Shown: positions 34,500 through 38,331 of the stretch, piece after piece
How positions within the stretch are numbered: the first letter of the stretch is position 1
Layout: every line of letters begins with the position of its first letter
Origin: Candidatus Spongiisociaceae bacterium
Lineage (GTDB): Bacteria > Actinomycetota > Acidimicrobiia > Spongiisociales > Spongiisociaceae
Reading direction: 5' to 3'
Length of the DNA: 64,000 bases
Assembly (NCBI GenBank): GCA_965262915.1
Contig: OZ253564.1
Span: 4,352,001-4,416,000 of the forward strand
Position numbers and translations under genes: made by a program
The notes under the pieces: generated by a model
Told to the model about the DNA's origin: nothing
Seen by the model: the letters and a program-made list of their open reading frames with translations, nothing else
Database searches by the model: none

Positions 34500-34746
34500 T
34501 GAAAATCATGTCGTCGATGATCTTCACGCTCTGGCCCTTCGTCAAGAAACCTTGTGTACCCCGTGGTCCGTTGCGATAAGCGACCGTAATCTCGATGTGA
34601 TCACCTGTTGGGGGGTTCTCAAATGCGAGATGTATGACTTCACTGTACGTGATACGTTCGTTTTCTACCGTCTTCTGTCGAGAGTTGACGATGATCGTGT
34701 ACTTCTTGTGGTCGTCGGGCGTCCCGATAGTGGATGCGTCATCCAT
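34474..34746 (-). CDS. Multiubiquitin-domain (Ubl) protein
   Basis: TIIVN..ITYSEV..LAF..GQSVKI..MIFNV.ATDKS. Confidence 0.8.
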   Translation of the reverse strand: MDDASTIGTPDDHKKYTIIVNSRQKTVENERITYSEVIHLAFENPPTGDHIEITVAYRNGPRGTQGFLTKGQSVKIIDDMIFNVKATDKS

Positions 34747-36254
34747 TGTCAACCTCACTAGATGGGGGGAAGGCCACCGGCGTAATGCGGGCGGAGTGAC
34801 GACAGTATACCGGCTCTTCGGAAATGAGTGGGGAGTAGGGGATCTGCGGGGGGAGTGGTAATCCACTAGAAGTGAGGAGGGGTCCTCCATAATCGGGTGT
34901 TGGTAATGACATCCGAGGCAGGAGGACCCCTGTGGAAGCTGATCCCTGCGCGCATGTGCGAGTTGTTGGTAGGCCTAGGTGAGGTTGATCTGGTAGGGAT
35001 CAACGACCCGGGCGAGGGTGCACCGCTTGGGGTGGTGATCGGGTCCCGCAAGCCCCGCCCGTCCTGTGAGGCCTGTGGTGGCCCGGTGTGGTCCAAGGGT
35101 GAGCGGAGCGTGGTGTTGGTGGATTTACCGGCGTTCGGTCGGCCTGTGCGGCTGCGGTGGCGGAAACGTCGGTGGACGTGTCCGAACACCGACTGTGAGA
35201 TCAGATCGTTCATCGAGCAAGACCCCACGATTAGTCCCCAACGGGCGTTGTTGACATCCCGAGCGGCCCGGTGGGTGACCGTCCAGGTGGGTGGGCGGGG
35301 CCGTTCGGTCGACGAGGTCGCCGCAGAACTTGGTTGTGATTGGCATACGGTGAACAACGAGGTCGTCCGCTGGGGCGAAGCACTCCTGGGGGCCGACACC
35401 GATCGGATAGGCGAGGTCGGAGCTGTGGGCATCGACAAGAAGCGTTGTTCTGGCGGAAAGGCCGGTGGCGAACCAAGGTTTGGTGCACTTCTGTCGTCGA
35501 CGTGGGAGGCCACCACCCGGTTCGACATAGTCGGTGGTAGAACAGCAGAAAGCGCCGCAGCCTGGTTCCGGTCACAACCCACCGAATGGTGTGAGGCTAT
35601 CCGCTGGGCGGTGCTGGACATGTCCGGTCCTTACCGGAAGGCGTATAACCGGGTGCTCCCGAACGCTGTGCAGGTAGCGGACCCCTTCCACGTCATCCGC
35701 TTGGCCAACCAGCGTCTCGACGACCTACGACGCCGCACCCAGAACGAAACCCTCGGGCATCGAGGCCGCAAGGACGACCCGCTGTATCGGATACGCCGCC
35801 TCCTAACCGCCGCTTCCGAGAGGATCAGCGACCGGGGTCAAACCCGGCTGCGTGGTCTCCTCGATGCCGGTGACCCCTACGGGGAGGTACGCACCGCCTG
35901 GCACGCCAAGGAAACCGTGAGAGGCATCTACAAGATCGACAGTCCCGCCCTCGCTCTCCGATACACCCTCCAGCTCGCAGACGACCTCCAGGACGAATCC
36001 TGCCCACCCGAGATCAACAAGCTGGGACGTACCATCGCCCGCTGGACCCCCCAGATCACCAACTGGCACATCTCGAAGGTAACCAACAGATGCCACCGAA
36101 GCCCTCAACAACCTCATCAAACGCATCAAACGAGCAGCGTTCGGGTTACCCAACTTCGCGAACTACCGAATCCGCGCCCTTCTCTACGCGGGGAAACCCA
36201 ACTGGGACCTACTCCCATCGGTCACTCCCCACTGAAATCCACTCATACTTAGAA

Positions 36255-36430
36255 GGTTCCTGGGCTGGGACGGGTCTGACCCAACTGAAATCTGGCTTTG
36301 TGCCTTTTCATCGATCTGTCGGCCTGTTCCCAGCTTGGGGGTGTAACCCCCTGACCCGGGGCGGATGTGACCTTATAGGAGCTTTGATCTTCCACCACCG
36401 TGAGTGGTCTGTCCACCGCCTTCCGGGTCC
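36255..36430 (+). ncRNA. Putative IS110 bridge RNA
   Basis: Contains ACTGAAATC, TTCATCGAT, ATAGGAGC and TGAGTGG matching the target and donor junctions in the expected order; ends approximate. Confidence 0.75.
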
Positions 36431-36473
36431 GAGGATTAGGAAGTGATTCTATCCAGCAGAGGAGGAAGGTGTC

Positions 36474-37703
36474 ATGGGAGAAGATGGTCGGGTTGTGTTC
36501 GGTGGGGTTGATACCCATCGTGATACCCATGTGGCGGCGGTGGTTGATGGCGCCGGTCGGGTCCTGGGAACGGCACCGTTCGGAGCTGATCGAGTCGGCT
36601 ATGAGCAACTGGAAGACTGGTTGCGGTTACAGGGTCGCGTTAGCCGGGTAGGAGTGGAGGGCACCGGCAGCTACGGCGCCGGCCTCGCCCGCTATCTGAT
36701 GGCGGCGGGCATCGAGGTGGTAGAAGTGAACCGGCCGAACCGGCAGCTACGCCGCCAGCGGGGCGGCAAGACCGACAGTGTCGACGCCGAGGCGGCAGCT
36801 CGGGCAGCGGCCTCGGGGCAAGCTACCGCAGTTCCCAAATCTGGTGACGGACCGGTTGAGTGCATACGGATGCTGTTGGTGGCCCGCCGCTCGGCTACCA
36901 AGGCCCGCACCCAGGCCGCTAACCAGATACATTCTGTGACCGTTACTGCACCTGAGCCGCTAAAACGCCAGCTCAGAGGTCTCAAGCTCAAGGCTCGGGT
37001 TCGGGTCTGTGCCCGCTGGCGTCCCGGCCAAGCACAGACCACTGCGGCGTACGCGAAGATGGCTCTACGCTACCTGGCCCGCCGATACCAATCCCTCGAC
37101 GCAGAGATCCGCGAACTCGACGTCGAGATCCGTCGCCTCTGCGCCGAGGCTAACCCGGCTCCCTTAGCCGCCACCGGTGTGGGCCCTGACAGCGCTGCTG
37201 CGCTGCTAGTCGCTGCCGGCGACAACCCCGGACGGATGAAATCGGAACGGTCCTTCGCTGCGCTATGCGGCGCCAGCCCCGTCCAGGCATCATCGGGACA
37301 GACCATCCGGCATCGTCTCAACCGGGGCGGCAACCGCCAAGCCAACAACGCACTCTGGCGGATCGCTACCACCCGGATACGCCACGACGCAGCCACCAAC
37401 CAATACGTGGCACGGCGCCAGGGGGAAGGAAAGAACCGAAAAGAGATCATCCGCTGCCTCAAGCGGCACATCGCCCGAGAGGTCTACCGACTGCTGACCA
37501 ACCCGCCACCAACCCCGAACTGCGCCCGGCTCCGCCGCCGACGTCAACACGCCAACATCACCGTCACCCAGGCCGCCCAACAGCTCGGAACCCACCCCAG
37601 CCGCATCTCCGCACTCGAACGCGGCCGAGACCACAACCACCAACTCGCCAGCCGATACCAGACCTGGCTCCTAACCCACCAACCGGCCCCATCACCGACT
37701 TGA
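36474..37703 (+). CDS. IS110 transposase with C-terminal XRE-like HTH
   Basis: GGVDTH, VEGTGSYG, KTDSVDA, SSG, GGNRQAN; tail RLRRRR..VTQAAQQLG..ISALERG. Confidence 0.92.
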   Translation: MGEDGRVVFGGVDTHRDTHVAAVVDGAGRVLGTAPFGADRVGYEQLEDWLRLQGRVSRVGVEGTGSYGAGLARYLMAAGIEVVEVNRPNRQLRRQRGGKTDSVDAEAAARAAASGQATAVPKSGDGPVECIRMLLVARRSATKARTQAANQIHSVTVTAPEPLKRQLRGLKLKARVRVCARWRPGQAQTTAAYAKMALRYLARRYQSLDAEIRELDVEIRRLCAEANPAPLAATGVGPDSAAALLVAAGDNPGRMKSERSFAALCGASPVQASSGQTIRHRLNRGGNRQANNALWRIATTRIRHDAATNQYVARRQGEGKNRKEIIRCLKRHIAREVYRLLTNPPPTPNCARLRRRRQHANITVTQAAQQLGTHPSRISALERGRDHNHQLASRYQTWLLTHQPAPSPT

Positions 37704-37899
37704 CAACCATAGGAGCATCGAAGAGCCAGTATACCGGCGCCTCTGCGGTTCTTACGCCGTCTGGTAGCGGTTCGAGGGTGTCCCGGCTGAAACCTTGTGG
37801 CTCGAAGCTGGTGGATCAGGGGCGGCGTAGCAGCGCGCATCCGCAGAGCCAGGTTGTGTGGGGGACTCTTTGATCGGTTGATGTCGCTGAGCGGAGGCC

Positions 37900-38106
37900 A
37901 CGGTGAATGCCTGCCGACGTGCCGCTCAACAATGTGAGCTCTTCAAGAATGTTCTGCCGAGTGGCCTCATCGTCGATGAGCAACGCCACGTCACCGCCAA
38001 GGGTGTCCTCGAATAGCGCAGATAGAGCCTGAGGGTCGTTGGTTGCGCAGGTGAATCGGTTCACTGGTGCCGTAGTGGTCGATGCCGATGAGAGTCCGCG
38101 CGTCAT
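37900..38106 (-). pseudogene. Caspase-like (peptidase C14) N-terminal remnant
   Basis: CATND..ALSALFEDTLGG..LLIDDEATRQNI; degenerate. Confidence 0.5.
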
Positions 38107-38115
38107 GGCTAGCTC

Positions 38116-38331
38116 CTAGAGCTTCGTTCGGCCTGGGGCGTCGTCGAGATTGGCTCGATGGGTCGAAACTGAGACGTTGGTTAGCTCAAGCTCAGGGGCT
38201 CTACCGGAGAGGGCCTCGGTGAGGGCTTGAATTTCGGCTAGGGCGGATTGGAGGTGGTCGGCTATCTGGGCGGCTAGGACGGCTGGGGGTGGGAGGTTGT
38301 CGACGTCTTCTAGGCTTTCGTCGCGGATCCA
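38116..38331 (-). pseudogene. Type I R-M hsdM C-terminal remnant
   Basis: WIRDESLEDVDNLPPPAVLAAQIADHLQSAL; cut by a Tn3 end. Confidence 0.7.

What the first reader, a model, noticed from the sequence alone, without database searches (positions are those of the whole stretch)
36231..37727. IS110 with a bridge RNA apparently programmed against the ISL3 terminal repeat
The IS110 splits the ISL3 right TIR: ACTGAA-ATC-CACTCA ... ATAGGAGC-ATC-GAAGAGCC. Its left end holds, in order, ACTGAAATC (36284, equals left target), TTCATCGAT (36307, reverse complement ATCGATGAA versus target ATCGAAGAG; the other ISL3 copy has GATGAG), ATAGGAGC (36375, left donor) and TGAGTGG (36401, reverse complement CCACTCA, right donor). 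That is the LTG-RTG-LDG-RDG order known from IS621 bridge RNA. Circularisation would join TTGACA (37700) to CATACT with an 18-bp spacer. Inference: an ISL3-parasitising IS110, analogous to IS4321/IS5075 in Tn21 TIRs. The reconstituted target is one C shorter than the intact copy's TIR.
Basis: partly seen in the sequence, partly recalled or inferred. Interest (0 to 1): 0.75.

Follow-up and report, generated by a model that had tools for sequence, protein, structure and literature searches.

The report
IS110 element aimed at ISL3 ends
This is a small RNA-guided jumping gene (IS110 family) whose guide RNA is written to match the right end of a different jumping gene (ISL3), and it has hit about half of the ISL3 copies in this genome: a clear natural example of a mechanism described in 2024, not a new mechanism.

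Summary
A 1,479-bp IS110-family element (36241-37719) lies inside the right terminal inverted repeat (IRR) of an ISL3 element (34812-37727). All four guide-like strings are at the stated coordinates.

They sit in the two internal loops of a conserved two-stem-loop RNA in the left end. That is the bridge-RNA layout published for IS621.

- In the whole genome, 16 of 32 ISL3 right ends carry this element at the same phosphodiester bond.
- Of 24 complete family copies, 23 have flanks matching their own guides at 12-14 of 14 positions.
- Six sister subfamilies have different flanks and correspondingly different guides. No shuffle in 20,000 reached the observed match, for either target guide.
- The pattern extends to homologues of 51-58% protein identity in other Acidimicrobiia genomes.

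Two corrections:
- No C is missing. The crossover follows the second C of ATCC, and removing 1,479 bp restores the intact repeat. Donor and target share only one base there.
- The promoter rebuilt on circularisation has a 17-bp spacer, not 18.

IS110-family elements that target another element's inverted repeats are in print (IS1383 in IS1384; IS4321/IS5075 in Tn21). Verdict: new member of a known kind. No circle junction or RNA ends were seen.

The parts
34804..34811 (.). Left copy of the 8-bp target-site duplication (AGTATACC) made by the ISL3 element
   Evidence: the same 8 bp recur at 37728-37735.
34812..36240 (+). ISL3 element, body and inner part of its right inverted repeat. The left inverted repeat starts at 34812. 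In intact copies the transposase stop is the TGA at 36233-36235, inside the IS110 target. This copy is decayed.
   Evidence: Pfam ISL3 domains. The left repeat was read. Intact copies encode a 445-aa ORF ending ...SVTPH*. The window copy is 90% identical to the intact copy, with indels.
36231..36240 (+). Left target (ACTGAAATCC). The crossover is after C36240.
   Evidence: identical in the 14 complete copies that sit in ISL3.
36241..37719 (+). IS110-family element, 1,479 bp, with no terminal inverted repeats and no target duplication. The noncoding left end is 233 nt and the right end 16 nt.
   Evidence: Removing this interval restores the intact ISL3 repeat seen 15 times.
36244..36249 (+). 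-10-like hexamer (CATACT; CATAAT or CATAGT in other copies) of the promoter that would form across the joined ends
   Evidence: present in 24 of 24 complete copies, 17 bp from the -35.
36256..36430 (+). Predicted bridge RNA. The 5' and 3' ends are inferred, not mapped.
   Evidence: Fold of 36255-36430: -78.7 kcal/mol, z = -3.40, 0 of 200 shuffles as good. Covariation. RNA-library contigs cover 36232-36419 (weak).
36266..36280 (+). Target-binding loop, 5' strand of the closing stem. It pairs with 36318-36331.
   Evidence: helix 1 has 14 pairs, 9 with changes on both sides, and 93.4% of cells paired.
36284..36292 (+). Left target guide (ACTGAAATC). U36293 could wobble-pair with the core position.
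   Evidence: Identical to the 9 nt that precede the last C of the left flank.
36294..36304 (+). Small hairpin inside the target loop (GGC...GCC)
   Evidence: helix 2, 96% paired.
36307..36315 (+). Right target guide. 36308-36312 is the complement of GATGA. G36313 lies opposite the core C. A36314 and T36315 are complementary to the donor's own ..AT (handshake-like).
   Evidence: The reverse complement matches the right flank at 4-5 of 5 in all A-type copies that sit in ISL3.
36318..36331 (+). Target-binding loop, 3' strand of the closing stem
36361..36371 (+). Donor-binding loop, 5' strand of the inner closing stem. It pairs with 36411-36419.
   Evidence: helix 3 has 9 pairs, 4 with changes on both sides, and 80.9% paired.
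36375..36382 (+). Left donor guide (ATAGGAGC), identical to 37709-37716 at the right end
36400..36407 (+). Right donor guide (GTGAGTGG). Its complement covers ACTCA of the left end plus CC, the last two bases of the target's left half.
   Evidence: It covaries with the left-end type (ACTCA against AGTGA) and with target positions 8-9.
36411..36419 (+). Donor-binding loop, 3' strand of the inner closing stem
36474..37703 (+). Recombinase gene (409 aa): a DEDD RuvC-like domain, a Tnp domain and a C-terminal helix-turn-helix tail at residues 351-386
   Evidence: Pfam. Alignment to IS621 chain 8wt6_A, E = 2.8e-11, with D13, E62, D101, D104 and S274-G275 aligned to the IS621 catalytic motifs.
37700..37705 (+). 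-35 hexamer TTGACA. It overlaps the recombinase stop codon at 37701-37703.
   Evidence: TTGACA in 20 of 24 complete copies, TTGCAA or TTGCAC in 4. Also seen in right ends from other genomes.
37709..37719 (+). Left donor plus core (ATAGGAGCATC), the right end of the element
   Evidence: invariant in all 24 copies and in most homologues from other genomes.
37720..37727 (+). Right target, which is the outermost 8 bp of the ISL3 right inverted repeat (GAAGAGCC here; GATGAGCC in most copies)
37728..37735 (.). Right copy of the ISL3 target-site duplication (AGTATACC)

Best explanation
An IS110-group insertion sequence (36241-37719) has integrated by RNA-guided, conservative site-specific recombination into the right terminal inverted repeat of an ISL3 element.

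Shown by sequence comparison:
- The left end encodes an RNA of about 175 nt with two stem-loops, each closing an internal loop.
- The first loop carries a 9-nt string identical to the target's left half and a 5-6-nt string complementary to its right half.
- The second loop carries a string identical to the element's right end and one complementary to its left end.
- These strings change in step with the flanks across subfamilies and genomes.

Inferred from IS621:
- After excision as a circle, TTGACA from the right end and CATACT from the left end come to lie 17 bp apart. Together they drive the RNA and the recombinase gene.
- The DEDD/Ser recombinase bound to the RNA pairs the circle junction with the ISL3 repeat and exchanges strands immediately 3' of a C.

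Local particulars:
- The donor (..CATC|ACTCA) and the target (..ATCC|GATGA) share only that one C at the crossover.
- The guide bases opposite the preceding position are complementary to the non-cognate partner, i.e. they behave like the published handshake positions.
- The left guide is used one base out of register compared with sister subfamilies B, E and F.

Consequences:
- The insertion lies 5 nt past the ISL3 transposase stop codon and runs in the same direction.
- It cuts off the outer 8 bp of the ISL3 repeat, so it probably immobilises that ISL3 copy.
- It also places the IS110 RNA and gene where ISL3 read-through could express them.
For: Family:
- Pfam DEDD_Tnp_IS110 and Transposase_20.
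- Alignment to IS621 (8wt6_A, E = 2.8e-11) with the catalytic D, E, D, D and S-G motifs conserved.
- Long left noncoding end (233 nt) and short right one (16 nt).

Site specificity:
- 14 of 15 full-length close copies sit at the identical bond.
- 16 of 32 ISL3 right ends are occupied, 15 are intact and 1 is a one-C variant.
- Two more copies lie at the same site in another Acidimicrobiia genome (L037 and L039).

Guide-to-flank covariation:
- The genome holds seven guide pairs. 23 of 24 complete copies match their own guides at 12-14 of 14 positions.
- Over 13 distinct guide pairs including other genomes, 0 of 20,000 permutations reached the observed match for either target guide.
- Distant homologues (51-58% aa identity) still show left-guide 9 of 9 matches (L046, L050, L052, L056; L048 by eye). 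L046, L047 and L048 show right-guide 5 of 5.
- The right donor guide switches with the left-end type, ACTCA against AGTGA.

Structure:
- Fold z = -3.40 for 36255-36430.
- On 25 sequences, 89.4% of cells are paired against 81.3% when shuffled (0 of 500). Fourteen pairs have changes on both sides. Slid controls give 37-49%.

Intact targets:
- Empty sites exist for subfamilies A (15 copies), G (9), B (4), E (3) and F (2). They fix the crossover points.

Independent insertions:
- Occupied ISL3 copies are interspersed with empty ones on the ISL3 tree. Parsimony needs 6 changes, and at least 3 are forced by strongly supported branches.
- One occupied copy is identical in its ISL3 body to 10 empty copies.

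Promoter halves are present in 24 of 24 copies.

Published model: LTG/RTG/LDG/RDG, the junction promoter and a 177-nt RNA (PMC11208160, passages). Top-strand cut 3' of the core and handshake guides (PMC11208158, passages).

Weak support: contigs from three RNA libraries of two studies cover 36232-36419, and two of them bridge the ISL3/IS110 junction.
Against: - No experiment backs this. No circle junction is present in the genome, and no joint was reported in the laid contigs.
- The RNA's ends, strand and abundance are unknown. Contigs from RNA libraries may derive from DNA.
- Rfam 15 gave no hit at E <= 1.
- The whole 234-nt left end folds no better than shuffles (z = -1.39).
- RNAalifold on its own recovered the target-loop stems but not the donor-loop stem. 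I wrote that stem in from single-sequence folds. Its two outermost pairs fail in 13-14 of 25 rows.
- This particular copy has one mismatch to the right guide (GAAGA against GATGA).
- The left donor guide matches the right end over 8 nt but not at positions 7 and 9 next to the crossover.
- The left target guide is one base out of register relative to subfamilies B, E and F.
- One A-type copy (genome 3665109-) sits at a site that its own guides do not explain (6 of 14).
- The exact left junction was found only in this genome among the 41 searched. Many of those are draft assemblies.
Confidence: 0.9

Rival explanations
1. Same element and mechanism, but the true target is the rare one-C form of the ISL3 repeat (ACTGAAATC|GATGAGCC). 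The element would then be 1,480 bp (36240-37719), beginning CACTCATA, with a TC or ATC core duplicated. The two-C repeats would be non-targets.
For: - Under this reading the left guide (9 of 9 ending at the cut) and the right guide (core C plus GATGA) are in the same register as subfamilies B, E and F.
- The complement of the right donor guide (CCACTCA) would match core C plus CACTCA.
- One-C repeats exist: one in this genome and one in G008.
Against: - It needs a separate one-base deletion before each of at least 3-6 independent insertions across the ISL3 tree. That includes an occupied copy whose ISL3 body is identical to ten two-C copies.
- Both ISL3 inverted repeats carry the two-C form.
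- Outside this genome, two-C sites outnumber one-C sites 14 to 1.
- Subfamily G shows the same extra C. It has 9 intact genomic targets carrying that C and none without it.
Confidence: 0.08
2. The IS110 copies were spread passively. An ISL3 that already carried the IS110 transposed as a composite, so the shared site reflects one old insertion and not targeting.
For: - All copies lie in ISL3 elements that have their own different genomic flanks.
- The label 'occupied' is somewhat clustered on the ISL3 tree: 6 changes against a shuffled mean of 8.2, as low in 32 of 500 shuffles.
Against: - The insertion separates the outer 8 bp of the ISL3 repeat from the rest by 1.5 kb.
- Occupied and empty ISL3 copies are interspersed, with at least 3 changes forced.
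- Two IS110 sublineages only about 80% identical occupy the same bond.
- Sister subfamilies sit at other sites that their own guides predict.
Confidence: 0.03
3. Target choice is made by the protein, for example by the C-terminal helix-turn-helix tail binding the ISL3 repeat, and the RNA-like matches are by-products.
For: The recombinase of this clade carries an extra HTH_31/HTH_3 domain. IS621 and the distant homologues lack it.
Against: - Subfamily F has the same tail and the other subfamilies are 72-81% identical in DNA. Yet they use different targets, each tracked base by base by the two RNA loops.
- Tail-less homologues show the same guide-to-flank matching.
Confidence: 0.02

Closest known systems
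IS621 and other IS110-group bridge-RNA elements (Durrant et al. 2024, PMC11208160; Hiraizumi et al. 2024, PMC11208158; passages read)
   Same: - DEDD plus Ser recombinase.
- Long left noncoding end encoding an RNA with a target-binding and a donor-binding internal loop.
- Guide order LTG, RTG, LDG, RDG, with a 9-nt left target guide.
- Promoter rebuilt across the joined ends.
- No inverted repeats and no target duplication.
   Different: - About 20-25% identity to IS621 over partial alignments.
- 409 aa with a C-terminal helix-turn-helix tail.
- The A-type RNA lacks the 5' stem-loop that subfamilies B-D have, and has a small hairpin between the two loops.
- Donor and target share one base at the crossover (TC against CC), not an identical dinucleotide.
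- The target is another insertion sequence's terminal repeat, not a REP sequence.
IS1383 integrating into the inverted repeats of IS1384 in Pseudomonas putida H (Muller et al. 2001; title only, seen in the reference list of PMC11208160)
   Same: An IS110-family element whose specific target is the inverted repeat of another insertion sequence.
   Different: - The host element IS1384 is listed as IS5 family (table in PMC5141477), not ISL3.
- It comes from a proteobacterial plasmid.
- I could not read the paper, so the position within the repeat and the copy numbers are unknown to me.
[quoted passage not shown] 2024, PMC11187229, passages read.
   Same: A DEDD-transposase element that parasitises the terminal repeat of another transposon in one orientation. 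Natural reprogramming among relatives has been reported.
   Different: Those are IS1111-group elements, with subterminal inverted repeats and the noncoding region downstream of the gene. Here the noncoding region is upstream, as in the IS110 group.
ISPpu9 / ISPpu10 in REP sequences of Pseudomonas putida (PMC12288879 and 10.64898/2026.03.19.712850; abstracts only)
   Same: IS110-family elements with many copies at one repeated genomic sequence.
   Different: Their targets are extragenic palindromes, not transposon ends.

Membership tests
IS110 family, IS110 group (bridge-RNA elements) | Recombinase with an N-terminal DEDD RuvC-like domain and a C-terminal Tnp domain carrying the catalytic Ser | tested here: met
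   Pfam PF01548 (5e-25) and PF02371 (7e-18). D13, E62, D101, D104 and S274-G275 align to the IS621 motifs.
IS110 family, IS110 group (bridge-RNA elements) | No terminal inverted repeats and no target-site duplication. Integration is conservative, at a short core shared by donor and target. | tested here: met
   Removing 1,479 bp restores the intact repeat, and only one C is ambiguous. The shared core is one base and not a dinucleotide, which is a departure of degree.
IS110 family, IS110 group (bridge-RNA elements) | Long noncoding left end, upstream of the gene, encoding a structured RNA with two internal loops | tested here: met
   The left end is 233 nt and the right end 16 nt. Folds are, and covariation on 25 sequences.
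IS110 family, IS110 group (bridge-RNA elements) | [quoted passage not shown] | tested here: met
   The left donor guide is invariant because the right end is invariant, so that guide shows conservation and not covariation.
IS110 family, IS110 group (bridge-RNA elements) | A sigma-70-like promoter is reconstituted across the joined right and left ends | tested here: met
   TTGACA, then 14 + 3 nt, then CATACT. Both halves are present in 24 of 24 copies. This is sequence only; activity was not tested.
IS110 family, IS110 group (bridge-RNA elements) | Circular intermediate with abutted ends | tested here: inconclusive
   The genome holds no abutted-ends sequence, and no such joint appears in contigs of 4 runs. 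Contigs drop rare forms, and no raw reads were on offer.
IS110 family, IS110 group (bridge-RNA elements) | The RNA is expressed and bound by the recombinase, and recombination depends on it | not testable with these tools
   The only data are contigs of RNA libraries covering 36232-36419. These show neither strand nor ends.
IS1111 group | Noncoding region and guide RNA downstream of the gene | tested here: not met
   Only 16 nt follow the stop codon, and the structured RNA lies upstream.
IS1111 group | Subterminal inverted repeats of 7-17 bp | not tested
   No inverted-repeat search between the two ends was run.
ISL3 family (the host element) | DDE_Tnp_ISL3 transposase with its zinc ribbon and HTH, terminal inverted repeats and an 8-bp target duplication | tested here: met
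   Pfam. Inverted repeats share GGCTCTTCGG....GTGGGGAGT. The 8-bp AGTATACC lies on both sides. The 8-bp figure for the family is recalled and comes from no call.

The most novel reading that the evidence does not exclude
The co-resident subfamilies form a guide-sharing community. All keep the same donor ends and near-identical donor loops, so a target loop from one subfamily can direct the insertion of a circle from another.

The A-type copy at genome 3665109(-) would be a natural record of this. It is A-type over its whole length (95-100% per 100-nt window to an A copy). Yet it sits at a site matching D-type guides at 12 of 14 positions and its own at 6 of 14.

Together with three other features, this would define a bridge-recombinase lineage with looser core rules than IS621:
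- a crossover with one shared base;
- a guide position 8 that pairs with the non-cognate partner;
- a left guide that works in two registers.

The lineage would make its living by disabling other insertion sequences.
Probability: 0.3. Interest if true: 0.6.

Novelty: new member of a known kind. Interest (0 to 1): 0.4.

Why it matters
This is a clean natural data set for a mechanism of current engineering interest.
- One complete genome holds seven retargeted guide pairs on one scaffold, together with occupied and empty target sites for five of them.
- The rules of guide length, register, core identity and handshake positions can therefore be read from nature in a lineage far from IS621.

Biologically, it shows an RNA-guided element living on another transposon.
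- Half of the ISL3 right ends in the genome are hit, always in the orientation that puts the IS110 downstream of the ISL3 transposase gene.
- Occupied ISL3 copies look older or dead, while a set of ten identical empty copies looks recently active.

It does not open a new kind of system.

Tried and rejected
- Rfam: no family matched 34500-38200 at E <= 1. I cannot tell whether Rfam 15 holds a bridge-RNA family, so this says little.
- Folding the whole left end 36240-36473: z = -1.39, not distinguishable from shuffles. The MFE also pairs parts of the guides with each other (GAAAU with UUUUC). I treat that as a by-product of both guides covering the core.
- RNAalifold on 25 sequences: it did not find the donor-loop stem, because the alignment of that part is poor. 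I had to name the stem myself.
- Read laying:
  - No contig of the three RNA libraries lies on 36454-37043.
  - No joint corresponds to joined ends or to an empty site. The three joints listed (36693>37217, 37109>37215, 37376>37448) have short sides (21-30 nt) and probably come from relatives.
  - Loose ends at 36240 continue as GATGAGCC or GAAGAGCC. They are simply intact ISL3 copies.
- Left junction in 40 relatives: not found in those searched. Many are drafts in which repeats are unassembled.
- Recombinant origin of copy 3665109: rejected. It is A-type in every 100-nt window.
- My recollection that IS1384 is an ISL3-family element was wrong. A table in PMC5141477 lists it as IS5 family.
- The word 'split' does not occur in PMC11208158. 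The split-RNA result is in 10.1101/2025.05.14.653916.
- Literature:
  - 'IS110' + 'ISL3' + 'inverted repeat' + 'target' gave 34 papers, of which 15 were listed. None concerns this by its title.
  - 'bridge RNA' + 'ISL3' gave 1 paper, unrelated.
  - I found no printed report of an IS110 element targeting an ISL3 repeat in these two searches.
  - ISfinder could not be consulted.
  - Supplements are closed. The supplementary data and tables of PMC11208160 that list natural targets may already hold such cases.
- Not run: protein homology searches of the big databases, structure prediction, complex prediction and covariance-model building. The question did not need them.


Full report
WHAT IS THERE

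The window is G000:C1:4352001-4416000 of a 5.06-Mb single-contig genome with 64% G+C. Between 34812 and 37727 lies an ISL3-family element.
- Its ORF 34897-36252 hits DDE_Tnp_ISL3, Zn_ribbon_ISL3 and HTH_Tnp_ISL3.
- It starts with GGCTCTTCGG and ends with the complement of the same ten bases.
- It is flanked by the 8-bp direct repeat AGTATACC at 34804-34811 and 37728-37735.

Inside its right inverted repeat sits a second element, 36241-37719. The ORF 36474-37703 (409 aa) hits DEDD_Tnp_IS110 and Transposase_20, and in addition HTH_31/HTH_3 at residues 351-386. Against solved structures the best match is the IS621 recombinase (8wt6_A, E = 2.8e-11). In that alignment the motifs holding the catalytic Asp, Glu, Asp, Asp and Ser-Gly of IS621 are conserved as D13, E62, D101, D104 and S274-G275.

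THE SITE IS SPECIFIC

The genome holds more than thirty related copies.
- Fourteen of the 15 full-length copies that are 80-100% identical to the window's are flanked by ...CCCCACTGAAATCC on the left and GA(A/T)GAGCC on the right, followed by unrelated DNA.
- A census of ISL3 right ends gives 32: 16 with the IS110 left junction, 15 intact, and 1 with one C fewer.
- The ISL3 left repeat differs from the right one at positions 11-16. That explains why only the right end is hit.
- On a tree of the ISL3 bodies, occupied and empty copies are interspersed. Parsimony needs six changes, and at least three are forced by strongly supported branches.
- A set of eleven identical ISL3 bodies holds ten empty copies and one occupied copy.

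So the shared site reflects repeated insertion, not the spread of one composite. Two further copies at the same bond occur in another Acidimicrobiia genome (L037 and L039). The exact left junction was not found in 40 relatives searched. Many of those are drafts.

THE 'MISSING C'

Intact right ends read ACTGAAATCCGAWGAGCC: 15 times here, 13 times in nine relatives and once in G001.
- The left junction agrees with this through ATCC.
- The right junction agrees backwards through CGAWGAGCC and no further.
- The crossover is therefore immediately after the second C. The element is 1,479 bp, and nothing is lost or gained.
- The circle junction would read ..GCATC|ACTCA and the target reads ..AATCC|GATGA.

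The alternative is that only one-C repeats are targets. It would need a separate deletion before each independent insertion, including in the copy identical to ten two-C copies. I give it about 0.08.

Subfamily G shows the same arrangement independently. Nine intact genomic targets carry the extra C and none lacks it. The one-C repeat occurs once here and once in G008. It may be a mutation or a scar of excision in the other register. I did not resolve this.

THE RNA

The stretch 36255-36430 folds into two long stem-loops, each closing a large internal loop, with a small hairpin between them. The energy is -78.7 kcal/mol, z = -3.40, and 0 of 200 shuffles fold as well.

I aligned 25 left ends: six A-type copies, seven copies of the six other subfamilies of this genome, and 12 from other genomes.
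- RNAalifold recovered the closing stem and the inner hairpin of the first loop.
- The closing stem of the second loop I took from single-sequence folds.
- Counted together, 89.4% of cells are paired against 81.3% in shuffles (0 of 500).
- 14 of 26 pairs show changes on both sides.
- Sliding the partner by 1-3 columns drops pairing to 37-49%.

The guides lie between these stems, not in them. The left target guide is at 36284-36292, and the right target guide is at 36308-36312 with the core-facing G at 36313. The left donor guide is at 36375-36382 and the right donor guide at 36400-36407. This is the layout and order described for IS621 (PMC11208160).

GUIDES TRACK FLANKS

The genome contains seven guide pairs on one scaffold. 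I call them A to G. In the list below, right-guide strings are written as their reverse complements.
- A: ACTGAAATC / GATGA.
- B: GGTGAAATC / CTTGG.
- C: ACTGAAATT / CCCAC.
- D: AAAGAACAC / AACGC.
- E: CGCGAAAAC / GTGGG.
- F: CCTCGTAAC / ATGAC.
- G: CCGGGAAAC / CGGGG.

Each subfamily's flanks carry those strings.
- 23 of 24 complete copies match their own pair at 12-14 of 14 positions.
- Over 13 distinct pairs, including loci from other genomes, the cognate left-guide match averages 8.23 of 9 against 4.15 for non-cognate pairs.
- The cognate right-guide match averages 4.38 of 5 against 1.56.
- No permutation in 20,000 reached either sum.
- Homologues of only 51-58% protein identity have a different left end (AGTGAT..). 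They still show 9 of 9 and 5 of 5 matches, and their right donor guide has switched to match that left end.

This natural reprogramming is the strongest evidence that the RNA chooses the site.

FINER POINTS (INFERENCE)

In IS621 the top strands are cut 3' of a two-base core. The RNA bases next to the core-binding positions pair with the non-cognate DNA after exchange; these are the handshake guides (PMC11208158).

Here the base before the crossover C differs between donor (T) and target.
- It is C in subfamilies A and G, A in D, E and F, and T in B and C.
- The right-target-guide side always reads the complement of the donor's ..ATC.
- The right-donor-guide side reads the complement of the target's last two bases in five of seven subfamilies: CC in A and G, and AC in D, E and F.
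- Position 8 therefore behaves as a handshake position and not as core.

In A, C and G the 9-nt left guide ends one base before the crossover C. The next RNA base is U, which could wobble-pair. In B, D, E and F the guide ends on the crossover C. For B, E and F the intact targets show this directly. Both registers are thus in use on the same scaffold.

PROMOTER AND EXPRESSION

TTGACA (37700-37705) overlaps the recombinase stop codon. Fourteen bases of the right end plus three of the left end separate it from CATACT (36244-36249), which makes 17 bp.
- Both halves are present in 24 of 24 complete copies: TTGACA in 20 and TTGCAA or TTGCAC in 4.
- They are also present in right ends from other genomes.
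- No plus-strand sigma-70-like site lies in the integrated left end. This fits the published weak expression of integrated IS621 (PMC13626964, abstract).

The insertion is 5 nt past the ISL3 transposase stop: intact copies end ...SVTPH* with the TGA at 36233-36235. It has the same direction, so read-through from ISL3 is possible.

Contigs from three metatranscriptome runs of two studies cover 36232-36419, and two of them bridge the junction. This shows presence in RNA libraries. It shows neither strand, nor ends, nor that the RNA is made.

COMPARISON WITH WHAT IS KNOWN

The element meets every sequence-level criterion of an IS110-group bridge-RNA element. It fails the IS1111-group criterion of a downstream noncoding region. 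Targeting the terminal repeats of another mobile element is in print for IS1383 in IS1384 and for IS4321/IS5075 in Tn21-family transposons (titles seen). IS1384 is listed as IS5 family. Two searches found no report of an ISL3 repeat as a target. ISfinder and the supplements could not be consulted.

I therefore file it as a new member of a known kind. The local peculiarities are:
- the helix-turn-helix tail;
- a single shared base at the crossover;
- the two guide registers;
- no 5' stem-loop in the A-type RNA.

VERDICT

- Observation: confirmed, with two small corrections.
- Interpretation: supported.
- Mechanism: confidence 0.9, resting on homology and covariation and on no experiment.
- Interest: 0.4. 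It is a good natural model system and a tidy case of one transposon parasitising another, but not surprising to a specialist after 2024.

Noticed in passing
genome G000:C1:3663632-3665109 (minus strand), outside the window; locus L008: An A-type copy sits outside ISL3. It is 95-100% identical per 100-nt window to another A copy. Its flanks match its own guides at 6 of 14 positions but the D-type guides at 12 of 14. Possible causes are cross-mobilisation by a co-resident subfamily's target loop, or an off-target 'half-match' event. Split target and donor loops work in trans for IS622 (10.1101/2025.05.14.653916).
   Followed up: partly
window 37521-37703 (recombinase residues about 350-409): The recombinase has a C-terminal HTH_31/HTH_3 tail. 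It is present in the window copy and in subfamily F. It is absent from IS621 and from homologues of 349-364 aa in other genomes. Its stop codon lies inside the -35 hexamer. Its function is unknown.
   Followed up: partly
genome G000, e.g. C1:179683, 617926, 2809587 (G targets); 543419, 690586 (B/E targets); 544683, 689325 (F targets): The other subfamilies also aim at the ends of repeated elements. G cuts 12 nt from the end of a repeat conserved for over 70 nt upstream, with 9 intact sites. E and B cut the same repeat 22 bp apart. F cuts at the stop codon of another transposase-like ORF (...ARGILVT*), close to an E site on the opposite strand. I did not identify those host elements.
   Followed up: partly
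genome G000:C1:306070-306086 (minus strand) and G008:C23:8508-8524: A one-C form of the ISL3 right repeat occurs once in each of two genomes, against 15 and 1 two-C sites in those same genomes. It could be a point deletion, or a scar of IS110 excision in the other guide register.
   Followed up: no
window 34812-36240: The window's ISL3 copy is decayed. It is 90% identical to the ten-fold identical empty copies and has several indels. Its transposase frame is shifted before the conserved C-terminus, so ORF 34897-36252 runs on into the IS110. In general the occupied ISL3 copies sit on longer branches than the empty ones.
   Followed up: partly
genome G000:C1:3640047-3641339, 4419139-4420432, 288894-290128; loci L043, L057, L058: A variant group keeps the donor-binding loop and the recombinase gene, but unrelated sequence replaces the target-binding loop region. 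The same variant occurs in other genomes.
   Followed up: no
genome G000:C1:4464053-4466853 and 274375-276596: Nested or tandem arrangements of IS110 copies: an A-type copy interrupted or followed by parts of further copies.
   Followed up: no
window 36241-36262 compared with loci L018, L020, L022: The A-type left end lacks an insertion of about 55 nt that in subfamilies B, C and D forms a 5' stem-loop ahead of the target loop. IS621 is described as having such a 5' stem-loop (PMC11208160).
   Followed up: no
window 36446-36475, minus strand: A promoter-like site on the opposite strand (ATGACA, 18 nt, TAGAAT; 10 of 12) overlaps the recombinase start. It was the only hit of the scan, against 0.3 expected.
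   Followed up: no
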